Source: Minisyncoccota bacterium
Lineage (GTDB): Bacteria > Patescibacteriota > Minisyncoccia > 2-02-FULL-40-12 > GWA2-44-9
NCBI GenBank assembly: GCA_017992005.1
Contig: JAGOPO010000001.1
Location: 4,646-68,645, forward strand
DNA: 64,000 nucleotides
Reading direction: 5' to 3'
Under the pieces are notes generated by a model. That model was not told the origin of the DNA. It saw nothing but the letters and a program-made list of their open reading frames with translations, and ran no database searches. Below are positions 21,663 to 47,337 of the stretch, piece after piece (positions within the stretch are counted from its first letter, which is position 1; every line of letters starts with the position of its first letter). Both the position numbers and the translations under genes were made by a program.

Positions 21663-21672
21663 GTCAATTGTT

Positions 21673-30973: not shown

Positions 30974-30986
30974 GCTTGGGGCGATC

Positions 30987-33863: not shown

Positions 33864-35042
33864 ATGAAAAATGCATATACAATTTTAGATTTTGCTGAGT
33901 ATTACCGAGTAACTGTTCGTGAGTTGCCTTCGGACATCATTCTAGAACGAGAGCCTCTTTGTCCTTGTTGTGATATTGAGATGAACATTGTTTGTGCGTT
34001 AGTTGCTCATCAGGGTAAGCAAATATTGAATATCGGAGCATGTCCCGAATGTGGAACGAGGGGGTACATTGATAGGCCATCGCGACAATGGATTGAGGAA
34101 TTTTATACTGATACTTGGGATATTCACACCGCTCTCAATGCAGAGCAGGTAAGGGCATTTCCACGTATCGAATTAGATAAAAAGTCGAGTCGAAGAGTTG
34201 CTGCCATTGCAGCTTCCTCACTCGATGTTGCTCGTAGACTTCGTGCTCTTGATATTGGGGTGGGTTACGGAAGTATTCTTCGACATTTTCAGGAATCTGG
34301 ATTCGGCGAAGTTGTTGGAGTTGAGCATTCACCACACCGAGCCGACGTCGTCGCAAGGGCATTTGATGCAAAGGTATGTGTGGGGCCTTTTGAGTCTGAT
34401 GATGTGCAAAGTATTTTACGGCACAATAAGCCATTCGATGCTATTGTGAGCCATCATGTATTTGAGCATGTTGTGGATCCGAGGCGCTTCATTCGATGCG
34501 CATCTGAGCTTCAAGCACGTGGCGGTATTTTTGTGCTTGCTGTACCGGACGCGCTCGGCGAGCACGCCGGGTATCAAGCGTTGTATCCACCGCATCTATA
34601 TTCGTATACAAAATATGGAATCGAGACGCTGCTTATGAAGCATGGATACGAAGTGATAGAAGATGTATCACCTACGTTTGATAACATGATTCTGAAAATG
34701 ATCCGCGTTGATAAGCCGTCTCGCAGATTTTTCACCAAAGATCCACGGGCGTTTCAGGGTGTACTGGAGCGCTTTGAGCAGGGACTCGGATTCAACCAGG
34801 GTGAGGTAGTGAAACGATATGGAGTTTTTTGGTTGCAGCCAAATAGGTCACCTCATGATTTTACTAGAATTCCGATGCGCGGTTTTCAGTGGCGTATACA
34901 ATCACTCTACATGAAATTACTTGCACGTATTGGTAGGTATCGAAGCGATCATGCGATGTATATAGGACCCGCTGTAAAGAAATACTCGAATGCGCCATTC
35001 GAACTACAATGGGATGGACCATTACGATTACTCTTTAAATAG
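33864..35042 (+). CDS. Class I SAM-dependent methyltransferase with N-terminal Cys4 zinc-ribbon
   Basis: CPCCDIE...CPECG; LDIGVGYGSILRHF...FDAIVSHHVFEHVVDPRRFI...GGIFVLAVP. Confidence 0.7.
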   Translation: MKNAYTILDFAEYYRVTVRELPSDIILEREPLCPCCDIEMNIVCALVAHQGKQILNIGACPECGTRGYIDRPSRQWIEEFYTDTWDIHTALNAEQVRAFPRIELDKKSSRRVAAIAASSLDVARRLRALDIGVGYGSILRHFQESGFGEVVGVEHSPHRADVVARAFDAKVCVGPFESDDVQSILRHNKPFDAIVSHHVFEHVVDPRRFIRCASELQARGGIFVLAVPDALGEHAGYQALYPPHLYSYTKYGIETLLMKHGYEVIEDVSPTFDNMILKMIRVDKPSRRFFTKDPRAFQGVLERFEQGLGFNQGEVVKRYGVFWLQPNRSPHDFTRIPMRGFQWRIQSLYMKLLARIGRYRSDHAMYIGPAVKKYSNAPFELQWDGPLRLLFK

Positions 35043-35044: not shown

Positions 35045-35770
35045 ATGTATATCAATCAACGGCAAGTCGAGCGTGCGCAAATCCACAAGTCACCCCACGG
35101 ATTTTCTTATGGTTTCATCGAGAACTTTATTCATGAAGCTGCCTATGAGAATTTACGGTTAACGTTTCCAGATGTGCGCGGATTTAACCTTGTTGATAAA
35201 GCTTCTGGAGGTGGGAGAAAGCGTTTTTACGTAGGTCCGACGTATGTGGCGGGTAAGCATAATGATTGCGCATGTCAGGTGGCGGCACTCTCTCGATATT
35301 GGCAGGAATTCTTTCGTGAGTGTGCTTCTCCTGCGACGGCTGAGCTGATATCAAAAGCAGTCGGGATTAGCTTTAATACGCTCTGTAATTTTGGGCTCAC
35401 CTTTGGCAATGAGGGCTGCGTACAAGAACCGCACATCGATGGTGCGGCTCGAGAATATGATGAGAGTCCAGTAAAATCGTCATGGGCTTCAATCGTGTAT
35501 TTCAATGAGTCTCCTAATAATAGAGCCGGAACGTGTGTCTACGAGCCTGATAGAAGAACCATGACATATCAAGCTCCAAGCATGAGAAACGGTCTGTTCT
35601 TTTTTGAGCAGCACCCTCTGGCGTGGCACGGCTTTCCAAAAATGCAAAAAGGATTCGAAAGGAGGATTCTTTCACTGGCATATAGTTCCCAGCAGCAACC
35701 TCTCATGCCTCGGTCATCGTGGGCGCATCGGCTAACTTGTCGACAGTACTGGAAGCAATTTCGACCATGA
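35045..35770 (+). CDS. Hypothetical protein; possible Fe(II)/2OG-oxygenase-like or cupin fold (HxD...H)
   Basis: EPHIDG (HxD) and a distal AWHGF; weak inference only. Confidence 0.35.
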   Translation: MYINQRQVERAQIHKSPHGFSYGFIENFIHEAAYENLRLTFPDVRGFNLVDKASGGGRKRFYVGPTYVAGKHNDCACQVAALSRYWQEFFRECASPATAELISKAVGISFNTLCNFGLTFGNEGCVQEPHIDGAAREYDESPVKSSWASIVYFNESPNNRAGTCVYEPDRRTMTYQAPSMRNGLFFFEQHPLAWHGFPKMQKGFERRILSLAYSSQQQPLMPRSSWAHRLTCRQYWKQFRP

Positions 35771-37137
35771 AAACTATAGTAGTCACCGCTTATCACGGAT
35801 GGGTGTTTCGTAATTTACTTGGTAGTACCGCACTTTCCCAAGTCCACGAGAGGACGGGTGCGCGTGTAATTGTATGTGTTCCTCCAGATAAGGCTGAATT
35901 TACCCAAGCAACATATGGGAAAGAATGGATGACTGTTGTGCCATATGATGCGGATGCAATTATATCGACACGATATAATAAATTTTGGTATCGACTTGGG
36001 TTCTTGATTGAAAATACGCAGTATGTTCGCGACCAGCGCCTAGAGCGTCGCGAAAGACAGGGAACAATTGTTGCGCGGATTAATTTTTGGATAGTAAATA
36101 ATCTTGCATCAATACTTAGTAGGATAAGATTTGCTGTTCATCTCTATAGAGCTTTTGACTACCTTGCTTCGTCAAAGAGTTCAACGGAGGTGATAATGAG
36201 AAAATATCGTCCAGACCTTGTCCTCTTAGGTGATATATTTGGTGAGCACGATCTGCTATTTCAGAGAAATGCAAAGAGGAATCATATTCGGACTATTGGG
36301 ATGGTCCGTTCATGGGATAATACGACCACGAAGGGAATCCTTCGCATGATTCCCGATAGAATTCTTGCAAATAGCGAGACGGTAAAACGGGAACTTCAAG
36401 TCATTCACCGTGTGCCGAGTAGTCTCATTTCAGTGGTTGGGCTTCCACAGTTTGATGCTTGGATATCTGGGCCCACGGTCTCGCGTGATGAATTCTTTAG
36501 AAGTATTAGTTCAAACGCTGATAAGCGGCTCATTCTATTTGCTCCTGCTGGCGATATATTATCAACGACCGATTGGCAAGTATGCCAGCTTTTGAAGGAG
36601 GCAATTAATGGGGGCCGACTTCCGGATGATATCGTCTTCTTAATTCGAAATCACCCGCAGCATCCAGCAGATTTCTCTCATTTTATTGCAGATGATCATT
36701 TTATAATTGAAAACCCAGGGACTCGAACGCTTGAAAGGAATTTCAAGGGGGCAACATTAAATCCATTTGAAAATGATCATCTTCGAAATTCGATCTACTA
36801 TTCAGAGCTTGTTATGTACGTAGCCACTTCGATAGGTCTTGATGCAACTGTTTTCGATAAGCCACAGATCATAGTTAGTTTTGATGGATGGGAGGCGCGG
36901 CAGTATATTCAAAGCGTTCAGCGATACAATCAAGAGGATTGCCTTCGGAGTATGGTGAAATCAGGCGGCACGAAGGTCGCTCGAACTTCAGATGAGCTCA
37001 TTACGTATATCAATATGTATCTTGAAAAGCCTGAAATGGATGCCGGTGGAAGGCGCAGGGCGGTAGATGACCATCTCTTTAAGCTAGATGGCCATGCAGC
37101 GAATCGAATTGCGGAGATTATTTCCTCGAAGCTTTAG
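35767..37137 (+). CDS. GT-B-like transferase; TagB/TagF-type glycerophosphotransferase-like or sialyltransferase-like (HP motif); function unresolved
   Basis: ATGA overlap start; KRLILFAPAGD and IVFLIRNHPQHP resemble the YAPT and HP motifs of Glyphos_transf / bacterial GT-B sialyltransferases; its 3' end overlaps the convergent CMP-nonulosonate synthetase gene. Confidence 0.4.
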   Translation: MKTIVVTAYHGWVFRNLLGSTALSQVHERTGARVIVCVPPDKAEFTQATYGKEWMTVVPYDADAIISTRYNKFWYRLGFLIENTQYVRDQRLERRERQGTIVARINFWIVNNLASILSRIRFAVHLYRAFDYLASSKSSTEVIMRKYRPDLVLLGDIFGEHDLLFQRNAKRNHIRTIGMVRSWDNTTTKGILRMIPDRILANSETVKRELQVIHRVPSSLISVVGLPQFDAWISGPTVSRDEFFRSISSNADKRLILFAPAGDILSTTDWQVCQLLKEAINGGRLPDDIVFLIRNHPQHPADFSHFIADDHFIIENPGTRTLERNFKGATLNPFENDHLRNSIYYSELVMYVATSIGLDATVFDKPQIIVSFDGWEARQYIQSVQRYNQEDCLRSMVKSGGTKVARTSDELITYINMYLEKPEMDAGGRRRAVDDHLFKLDGHAANRIAEIISSKL

Positions 37138-37876
37138 GCTTGATGAATAGGGACTTGAATTTTATTTCTCCGTCGTGCCATTCACCGGGAGTGTTGATAT
37201 CGAGCTCATACTGCTCCGAGTGGGCGACGACATACAACTCTACTTTTTTGCCGTACAAATTGGATTTCTCGCTGTCGTAAAGATTTTGAGGGTTCAAAAC
37301 GTAGATAATATCATTGCGTGCATAGCATACTTGAGGGAAGTCTTGTCGTCGCGTAAGGATGTGTTTGAGTGGCACGCCTCCCCAGAGAGTGACATGGCCT
37401 TTTGGTCCGCGAACGAGTGTCCAGTACGGTGTATGGTTTGCTGGTGTAGGGTTTACGCCTACAACTGAAGTCGTATTCTTGCTTAAGAACAACATAATTG
37501 CATTATCGATATGAAACGATTGACGCGTGGGTGTCGTCGGCATCATGAGCGCAATGCCATCGGCGACATATCTCTCGGTATCTTTGAGGTGCTCATAGGC
37601 ATGCTTGAGCGTGGGTTCAATTCCAATGGAAGCGGTAGCTAATTCGTCTGGACGGATAATAACTTCGGCGCCATAACGCTTAGCGATGCGTGCAATTGCT
37701 GGACTATCAGTGGAAACAAAAACACGGTCAAGTTTTTTACTTTGGAGTGCAGCTAGAATAGACCATGCAATAAGCGGTTTGCCACAAAATAGCTTACTAT
37801 TCTTCCCAGGAATACCTTGTGAGCCACCGCGTGCGGGGATTATACCAATAAGACGAGGTCGTTTTTTCTTAACCAT
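37118..37876 (-). CDS. neuA: Acylneuraminate (nonulosonate) cytidylyltransferase, CMP-NeuAc synthetase family
   Basis: N-terminal LIGIIPARGGSQGIPGKN motif diagnostic of the CTP_transf_3 family. Confidence 0.9.
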   Translation of the reverse strand: MVKKKRPRLIGIIPARGGSQGIPGKNSKLFCGKPLIAWSILAALQSKKLDRVFVSTDSPAIARIAKRYGAEVIIRPDELATASIGIEPTLKHAYEHLKDTERYVADGIALMMPTTPTRQSFHIDNAIMLFLSKNTTSVVGVNPTPANHTPYWTLVRGPKGHVTLWGGVPLKHILTRRQDFPQVCYARNDIIYVLNPQNLYDSEKSNLYGKKVELYVVAHSEQYELDINTPGEWHDGEIKFKSLFIKPKASRK

Positions 37877-37910
37877 AAAAATATTATAGCATAAATATTA
37901 GGTAAGGAAA

Positions 37911-37934
37911 AGCCCCACACGGGATGTGTGGGGC
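37911..37934 (-). terminator. 9-bp GC-rich hairpin (gccccacac/gtgtggggc) followed on the minus strand by TTTT; also precedes an extended -10 (TGcTATAAT) placed for a leaderless neuA transcript
   Basis: Seen directly between the rSAM stop (37942) and the neuA start (37876); TATAAT (minus strand) ends 6 nt before the ATG. Confidence 0.55.
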
Positions 37935-37941
37935 GGGAATG

Positions 37942-39669
37942 CTAGAGATGAAGTACGTCGAGAGTGTGTCCGGAGTCAACAAGATCCCGAACCCTCAAGA
38001 ACATGTCGTTGGGGATATCGCTGAAGTTCAACGGTTCCCCCTCGTTTTCAAGAAGCTTCGTTGCGTCGTCCAATGAGATGAGATAGTCGTAGAACGCGTC
38101 ATCCATGACAGGATCAAACAGAACGCCGCTCGTATTCGGTCGTGCAGGTTGAAATGAAAGTCCAAATACACGGGTGAGTTCGGCGCGAACCGTGGAGTCG
38201 TTGATGAGCGTCGTGCCGGGGTACCACGTCATCGTGAACATTTTGGTATTCACTGATTCGGGGTTGATGCCGAATTGACTATAGTACTCCATTTGCCATT
38301 GCATGAAGAGAACGCTCTCTTTGATATCGGCAAGTGTTTCTGTTGGCGAACCGATAATCCATGTGCAGTTAGCGTGAATGTTAAATCGTCGAGCATTTTG
38401 AATGCCAACAATCATGGAGGTGGGGAATGAATGAGGCGAACCTCCAACATGAACCTCCATCATGCCATTACTAAGCGTGTGACCGCCCTTGCCGATTGCT
38501 TTGAGAACATCAGCGCTTGCGCTTTCTGCACCGAAGCCGATATAGGCGCAGCCGCCTTTAGCCATCAGCTCCACACGGAGTGGGCTCTCGGTCTTGCCAT
38601 TAATGAGTCCTGCGGCTTCGTCTAAGCGTGTATGGGTGCCCCAGGCAACTAAGTTCTTGATTTCTATGATTCGATCGACAGTGACAGCAAAGTTGTCATC
38701 AGGAAACGCATGGAACTTAATGCCGTAGCGGTCGATGTGGTCATGGAGTTCCCGCATAATGTGATCAGCGGAACGGACACCCCAATTGCGTTCGCCCTGC
38801 GTCTTGCGGAAGCAGTACTTGCATCCGAATGGGCACCCACGACTGGAGACTGATGTGGTCTTAGGGATCACATCCGCGTCACTCCATGGCGCAGCAGACG
38901 AATTGTTGGCACTGGCACTCCATGCGGGAGTGTGAAGATACCAATCAAGTACCGGATTGCCGTCAACGTCAGAGCGCAGAAGCTCCAAATCGGCATAGGG
39001 AAGTGCATCGAGATTGCGTGGCCGATTGCCAGCGTACAAGAATCGGTGACGTTCCCCAATGATACCCAGATGGTAGGGGTCGAGCATCCCAGAGCGAGCT
39101 GCTCTCTCAATGCCAAGATCGCTAACGATTTTAGCATCGTATGCAATCTTAATCATGATGTCGTCGCCTTCGGAGTGTGCGGCGCCATCAAGCTTGGGCA
39201 TGTACTGGAATAATCCTTCTTTGAGTTCGGTTGCCAGTCCACCACCGGACACCACGAAGACATCGGGAAGAATTGTGCGCACGATATCGAGCATGTTTTT
39301 CTGCCAACGGAGCGTGGTGATTTTACCCGAGAATGCGACACAGTGCGGCTCGCCGTGTTTCTCGATGTGGCGCTTTATGAGACCCGCCGCCTCGTCAAGA
39401 TTTAGGTGCCGTCCCCAGGGCAGGCGCGGATTTTGAGTAGTTAGGCGATAGGCATTTAGGTCGATGATCGTCGCCTCGACGCCGTAGTGTTGGCGCAGGC
39501 GGGTCGCCAGAAGGAGTGGCCCTTCTGGAGTCACGTTGGGTCGCGCCGTCTCTCGGAGCGGCATGTTGACGAACAGGACCCGAACGCCTGATAGGTGAGA
39601 CGGAGTGATAGATGCAATGACATCTGCCGGATGCAGTTCTAGCTGCGGAGCAACTGGAATTGTAGACAC
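37942..39669 (-). CDS. B12-binding domain-containing (class B) radical SAM enzyme
   Basis: CPFGCKYC (CxxxCxxC) radical SAM motif; N-terminal cobalamin-binding-like domain (VRVLFVNMP...ATRLRQHYGVEATIIDLN). Confidence 0.85.
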   Translation of the reverse strand: MSTIPVAPQLELHPADVIASITPSHLSGVRVLFVNMPLRETARPNVTPEGPLLLATRLRQHYGVEATIIDLNAYRLTTQNPRLPWGRHLNLDEAAGLIKRHIEKHGEPHCVAFSGKITTLRWQKNMLDIVRTILPDVFVVSGGGLATELKEGLFQYMPKLDGAAHSEGDDIMIKIAYDAKIVSDLGIERAARSGMLDPYHLGIIGERHRFLYAGNRPRNLDALPYADLELLRSDVDGNPVLDWYLHTPAWSASANNSSAAPWSDADVIPKTTSVSSRGCPFGCKYCFRKTQGERNWGVRSADHIMRELHDHIDRYGIKFHAFPDDNFAVTVDRIIEIKNLVAWGTHTRLDEAAGLINGKTESPLRVELMAKGGCAYIGFGAESASADVLKAIGKGGHTLSNGMMEVHVGGSPHSFPTSMIVGIQNARRFNIHANCTWIIGSPTETLADIKESVLFMQWQMEYYSQFGINPESVNTKMFTMTWYPGTTLINDSTVRAELTRVFGLSFQPARPNTSGVLFDPVMDDAFYDYLISLDDATKLLENEGEPLNFSDIPNDMFLRVRDLVDSGHTLDVLHL

Positions 39670-39786
39670 GAAGGAAACCTCCTTAAGAAATTGATTGGAA
39701 AAGTGCAGCGGTAGTATAGCAGAACATTGACGAAATGCAATGTTTGAGTTATTATATTATCATTCTTTTACAAAGGAGTAGCAATT

Positions 39787-40299
39787 ATGTGGATCACACA
39801 ATACGACGTTCTTCGACCGAAATTCGCTTCAATTGAGATCCTCGCATTGGACTTTGACGGCACGCTTACTGATGGTTTTGTGCACGTCCGACAGGATGGC
39901 ATGGAGACCGTTCGGTGTAGTCGTCGTGATAGCTTGGGCACCAATTTGCTTCAGGCAGCAGGTGTCAAAGTGGTTATCATCTCCAAGGAGACGAATCCAG
40001 TTGTACAGACGCGTGCCCAGAAGATGAAGGTTGACTGCTATCACGGAGTAGCTACTGGCGAGGGCAAGCTTGAAATTCTTCGTCGATACGCAGCGGAACG
40101 CCAAGTTCCACTTGAGAGAGTGTCCTACATGGGAGATGACATCAACGATCTGGAGTGCATTAAGGCCGTAGGCCTTGGTATCACTGTTGCCGATGGCCAT
40201 CCCATGTGCATTGGAGGCGCTGATTTCGTGACTACGCGCAAGGGTGGCGAGCACGCGGTGCGCGAAGTCTGCGATCTTATTTTGGAGGCAAAACGATGA
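39787..40299 (+). CDS. HAD-superfamily KdsC-type phosphatase (KDO-8-P / nonulosonate-9-P phosphatase family)
   Basis: ILALDFDGTLTDG...VVIISKE...SYMGDDINDLECIKAVGLGITVADGHP. Confidence 0.85.
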   Translation: MWITQYDVLRPKFASIEILALDFDGTLTDGFVHVRQDGMETVRCSRRDSLGTNLLQAAGVKVVIISKETNPVVQTRAQKMKVDCYHGVATGEGKLEILRRYAAERQVPLERVSYMGDDINDLECIKAVGLGITVADGHPMCIGGADFVTTRKGGEHAVREVCDLILEAKR

Positions 40300-41135
40300 C
40301 ATTTCCTATCGCAATTCTGCAGGGAAGATTGTCGCAGTCCCCCGATGAGCGATTTCAGTTTTTCCCTTATTATTGGGCAAGTGAGTTTCTTGCTGCTCAA
40401 GTAATGGGATTCGAGGGCATTGAGTGGCTGTGCGACGCCCCCGAGATGGAGGACAATAGCAATCCGGTACTCCTCAAGCAGGGCTCACAGCTGATTCGGA
40501 CTGCGGAGCTTCGCTCAGCTGTTCGTGTGGCTTCGGTATGCGCTGATTGGTTCATGAAGTACGATTTGCGCTCGTTGAGTGGAGCGCGGACATTGCCTTG
40601 GTTGACCTCGGCAATTCACCGCGCGGAATTAACCACCAATCGGGTTGTTCTGATCCCGCTATTGGAGGCGCATGCTCCAAAAAGTCTGGTGGAGCGGGAG
40701 AGGGTCCGCGAAAATCTCCAGATGATTCTGCCGATGTTGGCAAACTATCAAGTTTCGATCGCATTCGAAACGGAAATGAATGCCAGCGCATTGCAAGAAT
40801 TCGTGGATTCCTTCCAGAATGAGTACGTCGGCGTATACTACGATATCGGAAACTGTACGAGCTATGGCTTTGATTGCGCATCTGATATCAAGCGGCTCGC
40901 GCACCGAATCAAGGGGGTGCACGTCAAGGATCGTAAGAGGTATTCAACGAAATCGGTGTCACTTGGCACTGGTGACGCGAACATTCGAGGATGCCTCGAG
41001 TCCCTAGGTCACATAGGCTGGAGTGGAAGTCTCGTCCTGCAGGCGTTTCGAGGTGCTGCTACGTATCTGAAGGATGCCCAGCAGCAATTGACGTACATGA
41101 AGAAAATCCAAAAGGAGGTGTTTGGAAATGGATAA
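40296..41135 (+). CDS. Sugar phosphate isomerase/epimerase (xylose isomerase-like TIM barrel)
   Basis: FEGIEW..., VYYDIGNCTSYGFD...HVKD pattern typical of the AP_endonuc_2 / XylI-like TIM barrel. Confidence 0.7.
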   Translation: MTFPIAILQGRLSQSPDERFQFFPYYWASEFLAAQVMGFEGIEWLCDAPEMEDNSNPVLLKQGSQLIRTAELRSAVRVASVCADWFMKYDLRSLSGARTLPWLTSAIHRAELTTNRVVLIPLLEAHAPKSLVERERVRENLQMILPMLANYQVSIAFETEMNASALQEFVDSFQNEYVGVYYDIGNCTSYGFDCASDIKRLAHRIKGVHVKDRKRYSTKSVSLGTGDANIRGCLESLGHIGWSGSLVLQAFRGAATYLKDAQQQLTYMKKIQKEVFGNG

Positions 41136-41907
41136 GACATCAAATCCGTTCGATGTCGGTGATAAGGTCATTATCGTGACCGGTTCGTCTGGATTCCTTG
41201 GTCAGCAGTACGTGCGAGCGCTTCTAAAGGCTGGCGCGTATGTATACAGTTGGGATCGAGACGAATCACGTTCCGTTGACATCAAATCAGTTGATATCAC
41301 GAACGAAGGTTCCGTTGCAGAGGCTGTTGCGCGAATCATTGCCAATCGGGGACAGATCGATGGACTCGTCAACAACGCAGCCATGAATCCGGCGATCGGC
41401 TCAGGTGATTCGAAGTCACAGTTCGTGCCGTACGAGCAGTATGACATCGATCTCTTCCGGCGAGAGTTGGAAGTGAATCTCGTCGGTACGATGATCTGCA
41501 TCAAGCACGTTGCTCCATATATGATTGAGCAGAGGTCAGGCTCGATTGTGAACGTGGCATCTGAGGTAAGTGTCATCGCACATGATCATCGCGTCTACGA
41601 TGCAGGTGAGACGAAGTTTAAGAGCCCCGCATACACGGCGTCCAAGACAGCGGTGCTGGGCCTAACGCGTCAGTGGGCGGCACGTCTTGGTCGGCACGGG
41701 GTTCGCGTCAACGCGCTCTCTATTGGAGGCGTCCAGCGCGACGGCATGCCTGCTGACTTTGTTGAGCGTTTCGGTGCAACGACGATGTTGCAGCGGATGG
41801 CTCAGCCGGGCGAGTATTGTGCCACTCTGCAGTATTTGCTCTCGGATGCATCGTCGTTCATGACGGGCAACAACCTGATCGTGGATGGCGGTAAGCATGC
41901 CTGGTAA
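41122..41907 (+). CDS. SDR-family oxidoreductase
   Basis: IIVTGSSGFLGQQYVRAL glycine motif; YTASKTAVLGLTRQWA catalytic YxxxK. Confidence 0.85.
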   Translation: MEMDKTSNPFDVGDKVIIVTGSSGFLGQQYVRALLKAGAYVYSWDRDESRSVDIKSVDITNEGSVAEAVARIIANRGQIDGLVNNAAMNPAIGSGDSKSQFVPYEQYDIDLFRRELEVNLVGTMICIKHVAPYMIEQRSGSIVNVASEVSVIAHDHRVYDAGETKFKSPAYTASKTAVLGLTRQWAARLGRHGVRVNALSIGGVQRDGMPADFVERFGATTMLQRMAQPGEYCATLQYLLSDASSFMTGNNLIVDGGKHAW

Positions 41908-41914
41908 TCCGTTC

Positions 41915-41968
41915 GCCCCCGGTACGCCGGGGGCCTTTTCTTGACTTATATAGTGAAATCAGTACAAT
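41915..41968 (+). promoter_or_regulatory. GC-rich hairpin terminator (gcccccgg-tacg-ccgggggc + CTTTTC) immediately followed by promoter TTGACT-16nt-TACAAT for neuB (SD AAGGAGA before the ATG at 42000)
   Basis: Read directly; hexamers at 41941-41946 and 41963-41968. Confidence 0.55.
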
Positions 41969-41999
41969 TGCGCCAGCATTCTTTACAAGGAGATACGAA

Positions 42000-42968
42000 A
42001 TGAACCCGATTCGAATCGGATCACGTTGGGTGGGAAATGGCTTTCCCTGTCTTGTCATCGCTGAAATCGGCATCAACCATAACGGTTCTGTCGAAATCGC
42101 AAAACAGCTCATCGACGTTGCCGTCGATGCTGGTTGCGAAATGGTGAAGTTCCAGAAGCGCACCATCGATGTCGTCTACACGCAGGACGAGCTCGCGAAG
42201 CTTCGTGCGTTTGATAGAAGCATCATCAAGCATGCGGTCGAGCGCTCGGGCCGCTATGGATATTCCGTTCTAGGCTCAGTTGCGGAGGCTCGTTTGCATG
42301 CCAATCCCGAAGCGACCACGAACGGAGATCTGAAGCTCGCACTCGAGTTCAATCAGCCCGAGTATCGAGAGATTGACGCGTATTGTCGGGAGCGGGGCAT
42401 CATGTGGTGCGCTTCTCCTTGGGATGAGGCAAGCGTCGATTTTCTGGAGCAGTTCAATCCCGTGTGCTACAAGCTTGCGTCGGCTTCTATCACCGATCGC
42501 AAGCTGCTCGAGCATGTGCGAAGCAAGGGTCGTCCCGTAATTCTTTCGACAGGAATGAGTACCATGGAGCAGGTGCTTGCGTCGACGGGTATTGTCGGCG
42601 ATGTGCCACTGGTGATTCTGCACTGCAACAGCACATATCCGACGGCGGATGAAGACGAGAACCTTCGCGTCATCACGACGCTTCAGAATGAGTTTCCGTT
42701 TACGCCCATCGGATACTCGGGACACGGTCATGGCACCACCCCAAGTGTTGCCACTGTCGCACTGGGAGCGAGCGTCATCGAACGGCACATCACTCTTGAT
42801 CGTGCGATGCCTGGCTCGGACCAGTCCGCGTCGCTTGAGCCCTCTGGCATCAAGCATCTCGTACATAACGTTCGGCGCCTCGAGAAGGCGCTTGGCGACG
42901 GTATGAAGCGAGTGACGCCGGCCGAAGTTGCTATTGCCGCAAAGCTGCGTCGGAAGACCGACTTCTGA
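42000..42968 (+). CDS. neuB: N-acetylneuraminate (nonulosonic acid) synthase family protein (NeuB/PseI/LegI-like)
   Basis: GNGFPCLVIAEIGINHNGSVEIAKQLIDVAVDAGCEMVKFQKRT NeuB N-terminal signature; the C-terminal SAF domain appears short or absent. Confidence 0.9.
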   Translation: MNPIRIGSRWVGNGFPCLVIAEIGINHNGSVEIAKQLIDVAVDAGCEMVKFQKRTIDVVYTQDELAKLRAFDRSIIKHAVERSGRYGYSVLGSVAEARLHANPEATTNGDLKLALEFNQPEYREIDAYCRERGIMWCASPWDEASVDFLEQFNPVCYKLASASITDRKLLEHVRSKGRPVILSTGMSTMEQVLASTGIVGDVPLVILHCNSTYPTADEDENLRVITTLQNEFPFTPIGYSGHGHGTTPSVATVALGASVIERHITLDRAMPGSDQSASLEPSGIKHLVHNVRRLEKALGDGMKRVTPAEVAIAAKLRRKTDF

Positions 42969-42972
42969 CGCA

Positions 42973-43009: not shown

Positions 43010-43021
43010 ACACTACACATA

Positions 43022-43978
43022 ATGCATATCGAACACTGGGATGTTGATGCGGAGGTTAAAAAAGAGGCGCAAGAAAATTATCGAACAAAGTTCGCACTTT
43101 CACTTGCAGGAAAGGATGCACTTACTATAGTACGAGAGCTCACGTTTGATGGCGTTGCTCCTCTCATCACTATTGATGATCTTGATTGCCTCCTTCGGTG
43201 GATTGAGAAATACTTACTGCGAAAGAATTTTTCCGGTGTTGGCGTGGAGGTTGGAGCGGGGCCGCTAGTGTTTAGCTCGGTACTCGCGCGTTGTACTGCC
43301 GTTACCAAGATGTATGGTATTGAGATATGTCAGCCTATTGTTGAGCAATTGTTTCCTGGTGTTGCACGCGGTATCGCTCAGGAGAATACAAGCAAGCTCG
43401 TCGGCGTTGTCGGAAGTTTTGATGACATGCAGCTGCCTGATGCATCTGTCGATTTTGTATTTGATTTCTTCTCGCTACATCACTCACTCGATATTGAAGT
43501 AACATTTCGCGAGATAGCTCGAGTCCTAAAACCGGGCGGCTTTCTTCTGATGCTTGATAAAGCACGTCCGGATAGTTATTCGCAGGATGATTTGGACGCT
43601 TTACTAGACACACGTTATGGGCCTGAATATAATAAACAGTTCGGAATACCCGCAGAGCAGGTGATGACCCGCCGACTCAACGGAGAGCGTGAGTATCGAC
43701 GACGTGATTGGTGGGGCGCAGCATACAATGCAGGGATTCGGGTATTTGAATCGTGGCGGATTGAAAAGCCAGATTCTGGGGGAGTTATCGGTAAGATTAA
43801 GTTAGCACTTTCTATTTTGCCCCCAAATATTCAACTACTATTATCGCGATTTATTCCACAAAGAAAGCAAACGCATAAATTTATATTAGATGATTCATCT
43901 CGTGTCTTTACTCGACATATGGAGCACTTTCGTAAAGAAATGTCGGTTATGATAGCTTATAAAAATGAGCGTACTTAA
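43022..43978 (+). CDS. Class I SAM-dependent methyltransferase
   Basis: VGVEVGAGPLVF...; VDFVFDFFSLHH...IARVLKPGGFLLMLD. Confidence 0.75.
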   Translation: MHIEHWDVDAEVKKEAQENYRTKFALSLAGKDALTIVRELTFDGVAPLITIDDLDCLLRWIEKYLLRKNFSGVGVEVGAGPLVFSSVLARCTAVTKMYGIEICQPIVEQLFPGVARGIAQENTSKLVGVVGSFDDMQLPDASVDFVFDFFSLHHSLDIEVTFREIARVLKPGGFLLMLDKARPDSYSQDDLDALLDTRYGPEYNKQFGIPAEQVMTRRLNGEREYRRRDWWGAAYNAGIRVFESWRIEKPDSGGVIGKIKLALSILPPNIQLLLSRFIPQRKQTHKFILDDSSRVFTRHMEHFRKEMSVMIAYKNERT

Positions 43979-44663
43979 TAGAATTCGTCATGCGGTACGA
44001 GATTTGTTTTGGTACCCTGTATATATTGATTCAGACTCTACCTATAATAGGTATTGGTCTCAACGGGATATGTTTGCGACATTGAATGGCTTCCAGGCTG
44101 ATCGCGTTCGGATGATCGATGCGACTCTGCGGGATGGCGATTCTGTGCTCGATATCGGTTGCGGCGATGGTAGAATTCTTTCCGAGCTTCTGAAGAGAAG
44201 GGATATTACCGCATTAGGAATCGATAGTTCTGAGGATGCTCTCGGTGTGGCACAGCAACGAGGGGTGCCTGTGCAAAGAGTTGATATTCGAAAATTGGAC
44301 CCTGATGCTATTGGGACATATGACTGGGTCTTGTTGTTGGAAGTCTTGGAGCATATGAGCAATTGTGAGGAGCTCTTAGAGTGTGCACGTGTGCACGCCA
44401 GAAAGGCAGTGATATTTTCGGTGCCCAATACTGGCTACATAACGCACCGACTTAGGCTCTTGTTTGGACGTTTCCCGCTTCAATGGCGTGCGCATCCAGG
44501 TGAGCATGTCCGTTTTTGGACGTATCGAGATATGCAGTATTGGCTTGCATCTCTTGATTATGAGCAAGACATAAGGCCGTACCAGGGTATTCCGATATTG
44601 CGTCGCATCTGGCCGAGCCTATTTGCGGCCGGGCTTTTTATAGTTGTACGCTCTCGAAGCTAG
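43965..44663 (+). CDS. Class I SAM-dependent methyltransferase (MetW/Methyltransf_11-like)
   Basis: VLDIGCGDGRILSEL...DWVLLLEVLEHMSN. Confidence 0.75.
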   Translation: MSVLNRIRHAVRDLFWYPVYIDSDSTYNRYWSQRDMFATLNGFQADRVRMIDATLRDGDSVLDIGCGDGRILSELLKRRDITALGIDSSEDALGVAQQRGVPVQRVDIRKLDPDAIGTYDWVLLLEVLEHMSNCEELLECARVHARKAVIFSVPNTGYITHRLRLLFGRFPLQWRAHPGEHVRFWTYRDMQYWLASLDYEQDIRPYQGIPILRRIWPSLFAAGLFIVVRSRS

Positions 44664-45982
44664 CTTAGTAGTTTGCGACTCTCGTATTCCCATAATACAC
44701 AATTGAGCACCGTGCCAATTACCTGAGTAATAAGCGCAGCCCATACAAGACCCCAAATACCCCAGGCGCTACCGAGGAATAGATAAAGTATTATCTTAAG
44801 GGAGTGGCCAACTGTCGAGCTGATATATAGTGGCTTGAGCATTCGTTTGCCCCTAAAAATGCTAGCGATGTAAGAGTTTGGAAGTGTAAACACAGTTGTG
44901 AACATGAATACTCTGGAATATGCGATTGATTCTAAGTATTGAGGAAAAATAAATGAAAAAAGATGTGGTGCAACTATCCAGTAGCTTATGCTTACCAAGA
45001 AGCCCAAGCTTGCGCCCTGAAGGATTCGAGTATAGAAAACAGGTCGTATAGTGGATAGCTCCCTGCTAGACATCTTAGGCAACAAGAGAGCGGCGATGCT
45101 TTTTGCGTAGCTTTTAATTCGCTCAGGTGCGGCTTGGGCTAGTGAGTAGACCGCAAGCTGAACAGAACCAGTATTTTGGAATAGAAGCACCTTATCAATG
45201 TATTGATCTACTGTCGCTAATACATTCATGAATGATAGGTGGCCGCCGTAGGTTGCTAGCTGTGATTTCATTTGGCTAGACAAAGACGGGTGATGAGAGG
45301 CAGAGATAATTCTTCGATAGAAATATAGACCTGGAAGTAGCGTGCCTAGTGCATAAGCGATTACAATGATGAGAATATTTTTTGTGAGAATTGTTGCCGT
45401 AATGAGTAGGATGGAATAGGTGAGCGTACCCAATGCGTTATAGAGGGAAGCAGTCCGAAAATCTCTTTTCCCTGAAAGATATGCCCCGTATGTGTTAAGA
45501 GCCGAAGATATCGGAAACGATATACCCAAGATAAAAAGACCAAATGAAAGGACGGTGTTTCCCTGAACAAGATAATAGAGTGACCCAATAATCGACGCTA
45601 TAAAATACGCCGTATTCCATTTCAATTGCAAATGCACACTAAAAGGAAGCGCTCCCTGAACGCCGCTTGCCGTCATCTGCGTGACTGCCGTGTTCATGCC
45701 TGTTAATGTAAGGAATCCGAGCATTCCCGCTATTGAGAGGAGGTATTTGTAGGTGCCATAGTCCTGTGGCGATAAATAGTGTGCAAAGACAAGAATTTGA
45801 GCTAGTGACAAAATAGATCCAAGTGTTTGACCAAAGCCCGTCCAAAAACCACCTCGAACTAAATATAGATTGTCAGTTCCCGTGAGTGATTGAGTGCGGA
45901 CAACGAGTGCACGTAAGTAGCCCTTGACACGTGTAATCATGATAGTTATATTATAGCCTATCTTCGCATCTTTGGCAATCAC
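44660..45982 (-). CDS. MOP-superfamily oligosaccharide flippase (Wzx / Polysacc_synt family)
   Basis: About 12 TM helices; N-terminal GFWTGFGQTLGSILSLAQILVFAHYLSPQDYGTYKYL typical of Wzx-type proteins. Confidence 0.8.
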   Translation of the reverse strand: MIAKDAKIGYNITIMITRVKGYLRALVVRTQSLTGTDNLYLVRGGFWTGFGQTLGSILSLAQILVFAHYLSPQDYGTYKYLLSIAGMLGFLTLTGMNTAVTQMTASGVQGALPFSVHLQLKWNTAYFIASIIGSLYYLVQGNTVLSFGLFILGISFPISSALNTYGAYLSGKRDFRTASLYNALGTLTYSILLITATILTKNILIIVIAYALGTLLPGLYFYRRIISASHHPSLSSQMKSQLATYGGHLSFMNVLATVDQYIDKVLLFQNTGSVQLAVYSLAQAAPERIKSYAKSIAALLLPKMSSRELSTIRPVFYTRILQGASLGFLVSISYWIVAPHLFSFIFPQYLESIAYSRVFMFTTVFTLPNSYIASIFRGKRMLKPLYISSTVGHSLKIILYLFLGSAWGIWGLVWAALITQVIGTVLNCVLWEYESRKLLS

Positions 45983-45999
45983 GGATAGCCCAGAGAATC

Positions 46000-47337
46000 A
46001 TGTATAGTACGTTGATGATGCTTCTAGAAAAAATTACGACTTCCATACGGCATCGTTTTGTTCGGGACAATATGATGCTTCAAATTGGATCATTGGGGGC
46101 GATGCTGGCGCAAGCCATAGGTGGTGTAATCCTTGCGCGGATTCTTGGCCCTCAGGAGTACGGGCGATTTGCAATTGTTATGTCAATGGCTGCTGTGGGA
46201 AGCGTATTTCTAGGTGCGGGCGCCGCTGATGCATTGGCCCCTATGTTAACTCGAGCCTATCATCGTGAAGATGATGGCGAAGTCCGCCGGGTATTCCTAT
46301 TTTTAGGAGGCTTTGTTATAAGCGCAGCTTTATTTTCAAGTGCACTTGGCCTTACGATGCCGCTGATTGCGAGGCATCTCTATGGAGATCGAATGATAGG
46401 ATGGCTGGGTTTTTTGGTCCTCATGGCTTCATCAATTTCAACGCTCATTTTAGTACCAACTCAACTTGGTCTACAGGTTGCAGGGAAGATTAAGCAGCTT
46501 GCACTCCTCACGCTTACTGATCAGTTTGTTCGACAGACACTCGTTCTCGTCCTTGCAGCGCTTGGCCTCGGAATCGCTGGAGCTGGCGTGGGCCACACTG
46601 TCGGCGCTATCGTGGTCTTATTTATTGCGTATTGGTTTTGGTCTCGACTGCGTAGGCAGTGGGGAGCGTTACCTACGGTGCCTCAAATGATGGCTCATAT
46701 ATCTCACACAAGAGATTCAAGCCTTATCGCACCAACGTTGTGGGTCCTTGCTGATCGTAATATTGCAATGCTCTATGGAGCGGCACCGATTTCAATCGCG
46801 GCGTTATCTCTTGTCGCAAGCGACGTATCGTATTTTAAGATCGCACTTGGCTGGGTAACGCTTGCGCTATCCGTGATAAGTCCAATTTCTAGCCTTTTAA
46901 ATACGGAGTTAGCTCGTATTCAAGTACAGCGACCGCAGCTACTCCGACGTCGCTTCTTGCAGATTACTGGTGGCGCAATTGCAGTCACGTGTGCTGTTAC
47001 ATTCGGGGCGGCGTTGATGGCAAGGCCAATGTTTTCACTTTTATATGGACCGCAATATGCACTGGCTGTGCCGCTTGTCTATAATCTTATTCCATTTGGA
47101 GCGCTTTTTGGTTTGGGTGTGGCTTTGGGGCCAATGTGGCGCATCATGAACCGCGTCAGGCATTCTATTGTAATTAATATCGTAGTTTTGGTCGTCGGCG
47201 TTCCGTTGGCGCTTTTTAGTATGCAGCACTGGGGTGTTATTGGTGCGATTGGCATGGTGACTGGATGGTATGCTGCGTCACATGCGATATCCTTCTGGTA
47301 TCTTTTGAAACTATTGGGTAAGATGCAGACACCATGA
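46000..47337 (+). CDS. MOP-superfamily polysaccharide biosynthesis/export protein (second Wzx-like flippase)
   Basis: GSLGAMLAQAIGGVILARILGPQEYGRFAIVMSMAAVG; multi-TM; start could be the internal ATG near 46072. Confidence 0.75.
   Translation: MYSTLMMLLEKITTSIRHRFVRDNMMLQIGSLGAMLAQAIGGVILARILGPQEYGRFAIVMSMAAVGSVFLGAGAADALAPMLTRAYHREDDGEVRRVFLFLGGFVISAALFSSALGLTMPLIARHLYGDRMIGWLGFLVLMASSISTLILVPTQLGLQVAGKIKQLALLTLTDQFVRQTLVLVLAALGLGIAGAGVGHTVGAIVVLFIAYWFWSRLRRQWGALPTVPQMMAHISHTRDSSLIAPTLWVLADRNIAMLYGAAPISIAALSLVASDVSYFKIALGWVTLALSVISPISSLLNTELARIQVQRPQLLRRRFLQITGGAIAVTCAVTFGAALMARPMFSLLYGPQYALAVPLVYNLIPFGALFGLGVALGPMWRIMNRVRHSIVINIVVLVVGVPLALFSMQHWGVIGAIGMVTGWYAASHAISFWYLLKLLGKMQTP

What the first reader, a model, noticed from the sequence alone, without database searches (positions are those of the whole stretch)
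35767..42968. Unusual nonulosonic (sialic-like) acid module with B12-radical-SAM enzyme, XylI-like TIM barrel and overlapping candidate transferase
NeuB (synthase), a KdsC-type 9-phosphate phosphatase and NeuA (CMP-activating) make a minimal nonulosonate pathway. Embedded with them are a class B (cobalamin) radical SAM enzyme, which typically C-methylates or rearranges unactivated carbons. There is also a xylose-isomerase-like TIM barrel enzyme and an SDR. This predicts a novel C-modified nonulosonic acid. NeuA and the rSAM are on the opposite strand to everything else. The NeuA 3' end overlaps by 20 nt a convergent GT-B-like gene with an HP-type motif, a candidate nonulosonate transferase. 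No UDP-GlcNAc 2-epimerase or PseB/LegB-type dehydratase is present, so the C6 precursor route is unclear.
Basis: partly seen in the sequence, partly recalled or inferred. Interest (0 to 1): 0.7.

Follow-up and report, generated by a model that had tools for sequence, protein, structure and literature searches.

The report
Sialic-acid-like sugar pathway with radical enzyme
This stretch of a candidate-phyla-radiation bacterium carries a real gene set, also found in many other genomes, for making, activating and attaching a sialic-acid-like sugar, and it includes a radical-SAM enzyme family not previously linked to such sugars, so the product is probably a new modified sugar that cannot yet be named.

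Summary
An independent assembly shows the same gene order.

The window comes from a Paceibacterota (CPR) genome and lies inside a large surface-glycan locus.

- **Synthase.** The "NeuB" is a true NeuB-family enzyme. It belongs to a clade that lacks the SAF domain and scores below the NeuB and PseI equivalog cut-offs.
- **Likely route.** A KdsC-type phosphatase and a NeuA-like cytidylyltransferase sit with it. This points to a KDN-like route through phosphorylated intermediates, which would explain why no UDP-GlcNAc 2-epimerase or dehydratase is present.
- **Radical SAM enzyme.** It has the two-domain class-B architecture. Its closest structures are TsrM and, equally, the cobalamin-free diol dehydratase AprD4. 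It belongs to a small, sharply separated family.
- **Linkage.** In 40 loci with full flanks, the family lies near a cytidylyltransferase in 32 and near a NeuB in 28. These loci span CPR lineages, cultured Roseibium (in flagellar contexts) and other phyla.
- **Transferase.** The overlapping gene has a GT-B fold with an invariant His-Pro motif. Its only consistent family match is the Tannerella Pse/Leg transferase family.

The chemistry is unresolved: C-methylation, deoxygenation and epimerisation all remain possible. I found no published link between radical SAM enzymes and these sugars. My verdict is a new variant of a known kind.

The parts
33864..35042 (+). Class I SAM methyltransferase (392 aa), part of a recurring trio of methyltransferase, 2OG-like protein and transferase
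   Evidence: Pfam Methyltransf_23, 68 bits. Found together with the 241-aa protein and the transferase in L007, L008, L018, L024, L037 and L078.
35045..35770 (+). 241-aa protein with a weak 2OG-Fe(II) oxygenase signal. Its stop overlaps the start of the transferase gene by 4 nt.
   Evidence: Pfam 2OG-FeII_Oxy_3, E = 0.0026, below the cut-off. Conserved beside the transferase in related loci.
35767..37137 (+). Candidate transferase for the CMP-activated sugar (456 aa): GT-B fold, TagB/BFO_1060-like, HP motif
   Evidence: AlphaFold pLDDT 92.6. Foldseek gives a GT-B fold. H296-P297 are invariant in 35 homologues. 34 of 35 family members hit NCBIfam BFO_1060_trans. Pfam Glyphos_transf scores 28 bits against a cut-off of 22.
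37118..37876 (-). NeuA/PseF-like cytidylyltransferase (252 aa), downstream of the radical SAM gene on the same strand
   Evidence: CTP_transf_3, 78 bits. PseF model 119 bits, below the cut-off. Full-length match to CMP-Neu5Ac synthetases 6ifd (2e-26) and 1eyr; KdsB matches only the N-terminus.
37942..39669 (-). Radical SAM enzyme with class-B architecture (575 aa); the tailoring enzyme of the module
39670..39786 (.). 117-bp divergent intergenic region between the radical SAM/cytidylyltransferase unit and the HAD-TIM-SDR-NeuB unit. Presumed to hold divergent promoters (inferred).
   Evidence: Sequence read. No Rfam element at gathering score.
39787..40299 (+). KdsC-type (HAD-IIIA, C0) sugar-acid phosphate phosphatase (170 aa)
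   Evidence: NCBIfam KdsC 115.5 bits. TIGR01670 scores 103.9 against a cut-off of 106.95. KDN-9-P phosphatase model 88.8 bits. DFDGT motif visible in the translation.
40296..41135 (+). Xylose-isomerase-like TIM-barrel enzyme (279 aa), UlaE-like sugar-phosphate epimerase/isomerase
   Evidence: Pfam AP_endonuc_2, 68 bits. Closest solved structure is UlaE, 1.4e-11. E158, D183 and H209 are conserved in 14 sequences. Where both genes were detected it lies next to an SDR of the window's type.
41122..41907 (+). Classical SDR oxidoreductase (259-261 aa), partner of the TIM-barrel enzyme
   Evidence: adh_short_C2, 134 bits. 54-59% identical to the SDRs in four TIM-containing loci and 28-30% identical to the SDRs in TIM-less loci.
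42000..42968 (+). SAF-less NeuB-family ulosonate (phosphate) synthase (322 aa)
   Evidence: Pfam NeuB, 243 bits, with no SAF domain. TIGR03569 scores 254 against a cut-off of 400; PseI model scores 196 against 340. It falls in a separate SAF-less clade in an NJ tree; the metal-binding His residues are retained and E134 is replaced by Ser.
43022..43978 (+). Class I methyltransferase (318 aa) that travels with the module
   Evidence: Methyltransf_11, 55 bits. It lies beside NeuB, or between the radical SAM and cytidylyltransferase genes, in many loci.
43965..44663 (+). MetW-like class I methyltransferase (232 aa)
   Evidence: Pfam MetW, 64 bits. Syntenic in L001, L007, L008 and L009.
44660..50977 (.). 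Export and assembly genes of the same glycan locus: two Wzx-type flippases, a Wzy_C-TPR protein and an initiating Bac_transf sugar transferase
   Evidence: Pfam Polysacc_synt, Polysacc_synt_3, Wzy_C and Bac_transf. Same order in L001.

Best explanation
The region is a biosynthesis-and-transfer module for a tailored sialic-acid-like (2-keto-3-deoxy-ulosonic, probably nine-carbon) sugar. The sugar decorates a surface glycan of a Paceibacterota (CPR) bacterium.

The proposed sequence of steps is as follows. All steps are inferred except the family assignments.

1. An aldose phosphate is prepared at the sugar-phosphate level, with help from the UlaE-like TIM-barrel enzyme and its partner SDR.
2. 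The SAF-less NeuB-family synthase condenses it with PEP to give an ulosonate phosphate.
3. The KdsC-type HAD phosphatase removes the phosphate, following the logic of the KDN pathway.
4. The NeuA-like enzyme makes the CMP-sugar.
5. The radical SAM enzyme, encoded directly upstream of the cytidylyltransferase on the same strand, carries out a radical modification of the carbon skeleton. It may act on the cytidylylated sugar, as Fom3 acts on a cytidylylated substrate (Fom3 comparison from my own knowledge). C-methylation is the most likely reaction if cobalamin is bound. 1,2-diol dehydration or epimerisation would apply if it is not.
6. The TagB/BFO_1060-like GT-B protein with the HP motif transfers the sugar.
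7. Neighbouring methyltransferases decorate it, and the Wzx/Wzy-type genes export the glycan.
For: **Family assignments**.

**Synteny**
- An independent assembly has the same gene order.
- 72 distinct genome loci carry the radical SAM family.
- Of 40 loci with at least 8 kb on both flanks, 32 have the cytidylyltransferase, 28 NeuB, 21 the HAD, 19 the SDR, 12 the transferase and 7 the TIM barrel.
- In many loci the radical SAM gene is directly followed on the same strand by the cytidylyltransferase gene.

**Minimal operon in cultured Roseibium**
- The order is NeuB-like, HAD, methyltransferase, radical SAM, cytidylyltransferase, next to a TPR protein.
- In an alphaproteobacterial single-cell genome, FliD lies directly upstream of the pair.

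**Gene fusions**
- NeuB-SAF-TIM barrel and cytidylyltransferase-NeuB-SAF-TIM barrel fusions occur in three genomes.

**Chemistry at the sugar-phosphate level**
- Related loci carry KdsC-type HADs, a SIS_2 isomerase, a weak kinase-like AAA_33 match (below Pfam's cut-off) and transketolases.
- No nucleotide-sugar precursor genes are in the window.

**Accessory tailoring role**
- A close relative (NeuB 86% identical) keeps the module but lacks the radical SAM and TIM-barrel genes.

**Structure**
- The radical SAM enzyme has a class-B fold and matches the TokK B12 domain at 1.2e-8.
- For the transferase: GT-B fold, invariant HP motif, and BFO_1060 hits in 34 of 35 family members. The Tannerella enzymes of that family were validated by knock-out (PMC5420450).
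Against: - There is no biochemical evidence. The substrate, the chain length and the order of steps are all inferred.
- Every component scores below the curated equivalog cut-offs.
- The synthase lacks the SAF domain and Glu134 of characterised NeuB, so it may use an unexpected acceptor.
- The Pfam B12-binding score is below threshold. The cobalamin-free AprD4 is as close structurally as TsrM.
- CPR bacteria are generally considered unable to make cobalamin (general knowledge).
- 5 of the 40 full-flank loci carry the radical SAM gene without NeuB or a cytidylyltransferase nearby.
- The top Foldseek hits for the transferase are UDP-GlcNAc 2-epimerases, and no sialyltransferase is in the top 50.
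- The TIM domain fused to NeuB in other genomes is not BLAST-similar to the window's TIM protein.
Confidence: 0.6

Rival explanations
1. The radical SAM enzyme does not use cobalamin. It acts like AprD4, as a radical 1,2-diol dehydratase on the sugar, and an SDR reduces the resulting ketone (the AprD4/AprD3 logic). The product would be a deoxygenated ulosonic acid rather than a C-methylated one.
Against: The minimal Roseibium operons have no SDR next to the radical SAM gene. The family profile hits the TokK cobalamin domain at 1.2e-8, and several family members pass Pfam B12-binding. An invariant GxG segment lies 28 residues after an invariant Ser, which resembles the classical cobalamin-domain spacing (my reading of the motif). 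In R. aggregatum-type genomes the gene lies beside a cobalamin biosynthesis operon.
Confidence: 0.25
2. The radical SAM enzyme is a radical epimerase. It would use the invariant Cys435 as hydrogen-atom donor, change the configuration at an unactivated carbon of the sugar, and give a new stereoisomer of unchanged mass.
For: Apart from the cluster cysteines, only two further cysteines are conserved: C435 (invariant, in the NCTWI motif) and C374. That is too few for an auxiliary cluster but fits a hydrogen-donor role. Ulosonic acid diversity in nature is largely stereochemical (general knowledge).
Against: No solved radical SAM epimerase appears among the top structural matches. The cobalamin-like domain would then have no explanation.
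Confidence: 0.12
3. The product is not a nine-carbon sugar. The SAF-less NeuB condenses PEP with a pentose phosphate or a heptose phosphate and gives a Kdo-like C8 acid or a C10 ulosonic acid.
For: The phosphatase scores best against KdsC. Related loci carry GmhA-like SIS_2 isomerases and transketolases, which interconvert C5 and C7 sugar phosphates. The synthase lacks the SAF residue that contacts ManNAc, and also E134.
Against: The cytidylyltransferase aligns over its full length with CMP-Neu5Ac synthetases but only over its N-terminus with KdsB. The transferase family is related to Pse/Leg transferases. The synthase belongs to the NeuB family, not the KDO-8-P synthase family.
Confidence: 0.2
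4. This is an ordinary Neu5Ac, Leg or Pse pathway. Its precursor genes lie elsewhere in the genome, and the radical SAM, TIM-barrel and SDR genes are unrelated neighbours.
For: Only 64 kb of the genome is visible. A DegT aminotransferase and a GNAT acetyltransferase lie 8-10 kb upstream. The close relative L001 has an Epimerase_2 gene at the edge of its locus.
Against: The radical SAM gene is linked to cytidylyltransferase and NeuB genes across phyla, and fusions exist. The synthase is below both equivalog cut-offs and lacks the SAF domain. The presence of a KdsC-type phosphatase implies a phosphorylated intermediate, which the bacterial Neu5Ac, Pse and Leg routes do not use (established pathway knowledge).
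Confidence: 0.08
5. The 456-aa GT-B protein is not a transferase. It is an enzyme resembling UDP-GlcNAc 2-epimerase that supplies the hexose precursor.
For: The top Foldseek hits are UDP-GlcNAc 2-epimerases (E 2e-12 to 1e-10, TM up to 0.70).
Against: No family member hits an epimerase model. 34 of 35 hit the BFO_1060 Pse/Leg transferase model. Pfam Glyphos_transf is above its cut-off. The His-Pro motif typical of CMP-sugar transferases is invariant (PMC5420450). Identity to the epimerases is only 12-14%, and the GT-B fold is shared by both groups.
Confidence: 0.05

Closest known systems
KDN pathway of Bacteroides thetaiotaomicron (KDN-9-P synthase, KDN-9-P phosphatase, CMP-KDN synthetase), and the animal route through Neu5Ac-9-P
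   Same: The same three-enzyme logic applies: a NeuB-family synthase, a C0-type HAD phosphatase of the KdsC/YrbI family and a NeuA-type cytidylyltransferase. No nucleotide-sugar precursor enzymes are needed (the pathway itself is from my own knowledge).
   Different: The phosphatase scores 88.8 bits against a cut-off of 180 for the KDN-9-P phosphatase equivalog. The synthase lacks the SAF domain and is divergent. The radical SAM enzyme, TIM barrel, SDR and several methyltransferases are additions.
Bacterial Neu5Ac, legionaminic and pseudaminic acid synthases (NeuB, LegI, PseI; B. subtilis SpsE, PDB 1vli)
   Same: Same Pfam family (243 bits). The metal-binding His residues and the PEP-site motifs are retained. 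SpsE is the best solved match at 1.2e-42.
   Different: There is no SAF (antifreeze-like) domain and therefore no equivalent of Arg314. E134 is replaced by Ser and F112 by Trp. There is an insertion of roughly 30 aa. Scores are below both equivalog cut-offs. The protein falls in a separate clade. SAF-less "environmental" NeuBs have been noted in the literature but not characterised (PMC8208679).
Class B (cobalamin-dependent) radical SAM enzymes (TsrM, TokK, CysS, OxsB; Fom3 as a precedent for a cytidylylated substrate) and the cobalamin-free relative AprD4
   Different: Sequence identity is 13-19%. No curated family is matched above 42 bits. The family is distinct, with only 44 cluster representatives at E <= 1e-30. 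The substrate context, an ulosonic acid, has no precedent that I could find. Cobalamin dependence is unproven.
Tannerella forsythia Pse/Leg-derivative transferases (Tanf_01245, TFUB4_00887, BFO_1060; TagB-like)
   Same: Similar size (456 against 442-445 aa). GT-B/TagB-like fold, HP motif and position next to CMP-sugar genes. 34 of 35 family members hit the BFO_1060 model.
   Different: The score is 34 bits against a cut-off of 200. I could not identify a clear D/E-D/E-G motif. The acceptor is unknown.

Membership tests
NeuB / nonulosonic acid synthase family (PF03102) | NeuB TIM-barrel domain above the Pfam threshold | tested here: met
   242.8 bits against a cut-off of 22.1.
NeuB / nonulosonic acid synthase family (PF03102) | Metal-binding His pair and the PEP-site motifs (AEIGxNHNG, KFQ, GYS-H, E-H-TLD) | tested here: met
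   Alignment with neuB and pseI reference sequences shows AEIGINHNG, KFQ, GYSGH and ERHITLD.
Canonical NeuB / LegI / PseI equivalogs | C-terminal SAF (antifreeze-like) domain that contributes Arg314 to the substrate site | tested here: not met
   No SAF hit. The protein ends about 20 residues after the barrel.
Canonical NeuB / LegI / PseI equivalogs | Score above the curated equivalog cut-off (TIGR03569, TIGR03586) | tested here: not met
   253.9 against 399.65, and 196.1 against 340.25.
   Only PF03102 was hit. The PDB matches are all NeuB, SpsE or PseI.
Class B cobalamin-dependent radical SAM | CxxxCxxC radical SAM core | tested here: met
   C279, C283 and C286 are invariant in 31 sequences. 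Radical_SAM scores 55 bits.
Class B cobalamin-dependent radical SAM | N-terminal Rossmann domain of cobalamin-binding type | tested here: inconclusive
   Pfam B12-binding scores 25.3, below the 32.1 cut-off. The family profile hits the TokK B12 domain at 1.2e-8. The fold matches TsrM, TokK, OxsB and the MetH B12 domains, but matches the cobalamin-free AprD4 equally well.
Class B cobalamin-dependent radical SAM | Binds cobalamin and needs it for turnover | not testable with these tools
   The only circumstantial clue is that the gene lies next to a cbi/cob operon in R. aggregatum-type genomes.
KdsC/YrbI-type HAD-IIIA phosphatase | HAD motif I (DxDGT) and the family score | tested here: inconclusive
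   A DFDGT motif is present. TIGR01670 scores 103.9 against 106.95, KdsC 115.5 against 208, and the KDN-9-P phosphatase model 88.8 against 180.
CMP-ulosonate synthetase (NeuA, PseF, LegF) | CTP_transf_3 domain and a full-length match to CMP-Neu5Ac synthetases | tested here: met
   78 bits. 6ifd at 2e-26 over residues 9-229. The PseF equivalog cut-off is not reached (119 against 206).
BFO_1060 / TagB-like ulosonic acid transferases | GT-B fold with an HP motif | tested here: met
   Foldseek gives a GT-B fold. H296-P297 are invariant.
BFO_1060 / TagB-like ulosonic acid transferases | Score above the NF046086 cut-off, and a D/E-D/E-G motif | tested here: not met
   34 bits against 200, although 34 of 35 homologues match, the best at 2.3e-18. 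I found no clear D/E-D/E-G motif in the sequence.
L-ribulose-5-phosphate 3-epimerase (UlaE/SgbU) | Equivalog score and metal ligands | tested here: not met
   55 bits against a cut-off of 317. E158, D183 and H209 are conserved, but the fourth ligand position is not a Glu. The protein is a member of the wider AP_endonuc_2 superfamily only.

The most novel reading that the evidence does not exclude
This radical SAM family is a dedicated tailoring enzyme for ulosonic acids. It installs a C-methyl group, or makes another radical change to the carbon skeleton, on a CMP-activated sugar that is built from a sugar phosphate by a SAF-less NeuB. The result would be a previously unknown class of branched or skeleton-modified sialic-acid-like sugars, displayed on CPR cell surfaces and on Roseibium flagellins.
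Probability: 0.4. Interest if true: 0.8.

Novelty: new variant of a known kind. Interest (0 to 1): 0.62.

Why it matters
Sialic-acid-like sugars shape how cell surfaces are recognised, how flagella assemble and how phages and hosts interact. All the known routes to them use nucleotide-sugar or sugar-phosphate chemistry without any radical enzymes.

A conserved radical SAM family wired into such a pathway would add a new type of sugar and a new class of substrate for class-B-like radical SAM enzymes. It would also give a first chemical handle on the surface glycans of CPR bacteria, whose episymbiotic lifestyle depends on surface contact.

The same core operon occurs in cultured Roseibium strains, so the prediction can be tested directly by genetics and mass spectrometry.

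Tried and rejected
- **Literature.** Eight full-text searches were run; seven combined nonulosonic/ulosonic, sialic acid, NeuB, pseudaminic or legionaminic terms with "radical SAM" or CPR/Patescibacteria, and looked for the KDN-9-phosphate synthase literature. None turned up a paper linking a radical SAM enzyme to these sugars. The nearest is an uncharacterised radical SAM ORF in some Legionella LPS loci.
- **Riboswitches.** Rfam scans of the window and of six related loci found no cobalamin or SAM riboswitch.
- **Transferase against solved structures.** A sequence search of the PDB gave nothing, so I used structure prediction instead.
- **Fused TIM domains.** I tested whether the TIM domain fused to NeuB in other genomes is an orthologue of the window's TIM protein. 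There was no BLAST similarity, so the fusions support only a general link between NeuB and TIM-barrel proteins.
- **SIS_2 and TIM barrel as interchangeable isomerases.** I rejected this idea as a simple rule, because L018, L028 and L059 carry both.
- **A cobamide-metabolism reading.** I considered this because of the weak CbiR hit on the TIM protein and the cob-operon neighbour in R. aggregatum. I rejected it as the main function, because the dominant context is NeuB, cytidylyltransferase, transferase and flippase genes.
- **Clustering.** Single-linkage clustering of neighbouring genes merged the SDR, NeuB and cytidylyltransferase families. I replaced it with per-family HMMs.
- **A script error.** The first NeuB tree used the wrong window record. 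It was redone.

Full report
**What is there**

The finding lies inside a locus of about 40 kb for a surface glycan, running from roughly 11 to 51 kb of the window. The locus contains many GT4 glycosyltransferases, FkbM and class I methyltransferases, a DegT aminotransferase, two Wzx-type flippases, a Wzy_C-TPR protein and an initiating Bac_transf transferase. The NeuB-like protein is identical to one annotated from a "Candidatus Pacebacteria" MAG, and its closest relatives are all Parcubacteria/Paceibacterota.

The convergent overlap between the transferase gene and the cytidylyltransferase gene is exactly 20 nt. An independent assembly, L082, has the same order and the same gene lengths. Pfam scans of most ORFs of 150 aa or more in the window found no UDP-GlcNAc 2-epimerase and no PseB/LegB-type dehydratase.

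**The core trio**

The synthase belongs to the NeuB family (243 bits) and not to the KDO-8-P synthase family. However, it has no SAF domain and falls below the NeuB and PseI equivalog cut-offs (254 against 400, and 196 against 340).

I built a neighbour-joining tree with PGAP-named neuB and pseI references and with a SAF-bearing paralogue from a Giovannonibacteria genome. The window's protein falls in a separate SAF-less clade that also holds the CPR homologues and a Methylomagnum plasmid protein. The SAF-less enzymes of Roseibium branch as a sister group.

The metal-binding histidines and the PEP-site motifs are kept. Glu134 of the meningococcal enzyme is replaced by Ser, and Phe112 by Trp. 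A published survey noted SAF-less "environmental" NeuBs with the Phe-to-Trp change and left their function open (PMC8208679).

The phosphatase is a KdsC/YrbI-type HAD. It scores 103.9 against a cut-off of 106.95 for TIGR01670, and 88.8 bits on the KDN-9-P phosphatase model. The cytidylyltransferase aligns over its full length with CMP-Neu5Ac synthetases, but only over its N-terminus with KdsB.

A synthase combined with a dedicated phosphatase is the logic of the KDN pathway and of the animal Neu5Ac-9-P route. Related loci carry further sugar-phosphate enzymes, which supports this reading. They include a GmhA-like SIS_2 isomerase, extra HADs, a weak kinase-like P-loop match and transketolases. 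A Methylomagnum plasmid has a split transketolase, an aminotransferase, an SDR, a SAF-less NeuB and a HAD in a row.

**The radical SAM enzyme**

Cobalamin use is still unproven. AprD4 is a sugar 1,2-diol dehydratase with the same architecture that does not use cobalamin (my own knowledge), and it is an equally good structural match. The Pfam B12-binding score is also below threshold.

The family is small and well separated. Only 44 representatives score at E <= 1e-30 among 1.84 billion, and generic class-B enzymes appear only at about 1e-14 to 1e-25.

**Linkage of the radical SAM family to the pathway**

A scan of one genome per species found 72 distinct loci. Most are in Parcubacteria. Others are in cultured Roseibium species and in MAGs labelled Nitrospirae, Deltaproteobacteria, Planctomycetota, Acidobacteriota, Opitutia and Nanoarchaeota. 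I searched the 40 loci that have at least 8 kb on both flanks with HMMs built per family. The counts were:

| Neighbour of the radical SAM gene | Loci out of 40 |
|---|---|
| Cytidylyltransferase | 32 |
| NeuB | 28 |
| KdsC-type HAD | 21 |
| SDR | 19 |
| 456-aa transferase | 12 |
| 318-aa methyltransferase | 8 |
| TIM barrel | 7 |

Thirty-five of the 40 have NeuB or the cytidylyltransferase.

The most conserved unit is the radical SAM gene followed directly by the cytidylyltransferase gene on the same strand. This is the arrangement in the window, on the minus strand.

- **Roseibium operon.** Roseibium litorale and relatives carry a compact operon: an FNR-like reductase, a SAF-less NeuB, a HAD, a methyltransferase, the radical SAM enzyme and the cytidylyltransferase. 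It sits next to a 622-aa TPR protein and TylF-type methyltransferases.
- **Flagellar context.** In an alphaproteobacterial single-cell genome, FliD lies directly upstream of the pair. The TPR protein recalls the FlmG flagellin glycosyltransferases, but I did not test that resemblance.

A close relative of the window organism (NeuB 86% identical) keeps the cytidylyltransferase, HAD, an SDR, NeuB, the methyltransferases and the transferase. It lacks the radical SAM and TIM-barrel genes, and its SDR is of a different type. This makes the radical SAM enzyme an accessory tailoring enzyme and not part of the backbone pathway.

**The TIM barrel and the SDR**

The TIM protein is most similar to UlaE, a sugar-phosphate 3-epimerase, at 1.4e-11. 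Three conserved residues, E158, D183 and H209, fit a metal site. Where both genes were detected, it lies next to an SDR. In four of those loci the SDR is 54-59% identical to the window's, and in others it is more divergent. SDRs in TIM-less loci are only 28-30% identical. The two proteins therefore look like a functional pair.

In three other genomes, including cultured R. hamelinense, a xylose-isomerase-like TIM domain is fused to NeuB-SAF. In one of these a cytidylyltransferase domain is fused as well. The fused domain is not BLAST-similar to the window's TIM protein. The fusions therefore support only a general partnership between NeuB and this superfamily. Whether the pair prepares the precursor or re-shapes the product cannot be decided from sequence.

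**The transferase**

The model is confident (pLDDT 92.6) and shows a GT-B fold. H296 and P297 are invariant in 35 homologues. Thirty-four of the 35 hit the NCBIfam model for the BFO_1060 family, the best at 2.3e-18, and no other family is hit consistently. That family contains the Tannerella forsythia Pse/Leg-derivative transferases. These are TagB-like, carry the HP motif and were validated by knock-out and complementation (PMC5420450).

The top Foldseek hits are UDP-GlcNAc 2-epimerases, which share the GT-B fold. Identity is only 12-14% and no family member hits an epimerase model, so I regard an epimerase function as unlikely.

**Mechanism and how sure I am**

These points are shown:
- the family assignments;
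- the architecture of the radical SAM enzyme and of the transferase;
- the conserved linkage of the genes.

These points are inferred:
- a phosphorylated ulosonate intermediate;
- the order of the steps;
- action of the radical SAM enzyme near the CMP-activation step, based on gene coupling and the Fom3 precedent, which is from my own knowledge;
- the type of radical reaction.

I rate C-methylation as the most likely reaction. The reasons are the homology to cobalamin domains, an invariant Ser114 followed 28 residues later by a GxG segment, operons without any SDR, and a cob-operon neighbour in R. aggregatum-type genomes.

AprD4-like dehydration followed by SDR reduction is a serious alternative. 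So is epimerisation using the invariant Cys435. A backbone that is not C9 also remains possible.

**Novelty**

I found no paper that connects a radical SAM enzyme with the biosynthesis of nonulosonic or other ulosonic acids. The nearest mention is an uncharacterised radical SAM ORF in some Legionella pneumophila LPS loci.

The module is a new variant of a known kind. It is a sialic-acid-like sugar gene cluster with a SAF-less synthase, sugar-phosphate logic and a dedicated radical SAM family. It is not unique to this window, and that strengthens the case that it is functional. It is experimentally tractable in Roseibium.

Noticed in passing
L012 14510-16420 (-); L079 6957-9287 (-); L017 7208-10006 (-): Single ORFs fuse NeuB, SAF and a xylose-isomerase-like TIM barrel (636 and 776 aa). 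One ORF fuses a cytidylyltransferase, NeuB, SAF and the TIM barrel (932 aa). All three are in loci that also carry the radical SAM family, and one is from cultured Roseibium hamelinense.
   Followed up: partly
L038 9947-20154 (same layout in L042, L043 and L046): In Roseibium aggregatum-type genomes the radical SAM/cytidylyltransferase pair has no NeuB nearby. It lies about 1.9 kb upstream of a cobalamin biosynthesis operon (CbiX, CbiC, tetrapyrrole methylases, CbiG). No cobalamin riboswitch was detected.
   Followed up: partly
P0201 and P0203 (homologues of window 37942-39669): Some homologues of the radical SAM enzyme are 913-919 aa long and carry a LAGLIDADG_3 (PF14528) domain, which suggests an intein inserted in the enzyme.
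   Followed up: no
L083 (Methylomagnum ishizawai plasmid pRS11DPr1) 7053-13498: A cultured methanotroph carries a SAF-less NeuB (48% identical) in a run of genes: a split transketolase, a class III aminotransferase, an SDR, NeuB and a HAD-IIIA. This is a second uncharacterised variant of the sugar-phosphate route.
   Followed up: no
window 29276-32789: Two large overlapping ORFs (565 and 616 aa) have no Pfam match. They are conserved in the same position in the related locus L001 and lie upstream of the GT4 and transferase genes.
   Followed up: no
window 38000-44000: GC content is 0.50-0.53 across the radical SAM to NeuB segment, against 0.44-0.47 on either side. Relative to the close relative L001, the radical SAM and TIM-barrel genes are gained and the SDR is replaced. 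Together this suggests modular exchange within the locus.
   Followed up: partly
L047 7056-8006; L060 5339-6181: Roseibium operons carry a ferredoxin-NADP-reductase-like gene (FAD_binding_6 plus NAD_binding_1) directly upstream of the NeuB-like gene. It could be an electron donor for the radical SAM enzyme.
   Followed up: no
L062 9500-9970: In an Opitutia MAG, a small protein with DUF5522 and pterin-binding DUF4346 domains lies directly upstream of the radical SAM/cytidylyltransferase pair.
   Followed up: no
L005 3186-10945: A Giovannonibacteria genome has two synthases in one locus. One is a canonical SAF-bearing NeuB next to Epimerase_2. The other is the SAF-less NeuB with a cytidylyltransferase, a methyltransferase and a Capsule_synth (KpsC/KpsS-like) protein. 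This implies two different ulosonic acids in one locus.
   Followed up: no
window 5891-9178 and 4310-5257: A 1095-aa ORF has no Pfam match, and a neighbouring protein carries a lamin-tail domain. Both lie upstream of the glycan locus and may be surface proteins.
   Followed up: no
window 10975-23610: The window holds an unusually long run of about ten GT4-type glycosyltransferase genes, interspersed with two FkbM methyltransferases.
   Followed up: no
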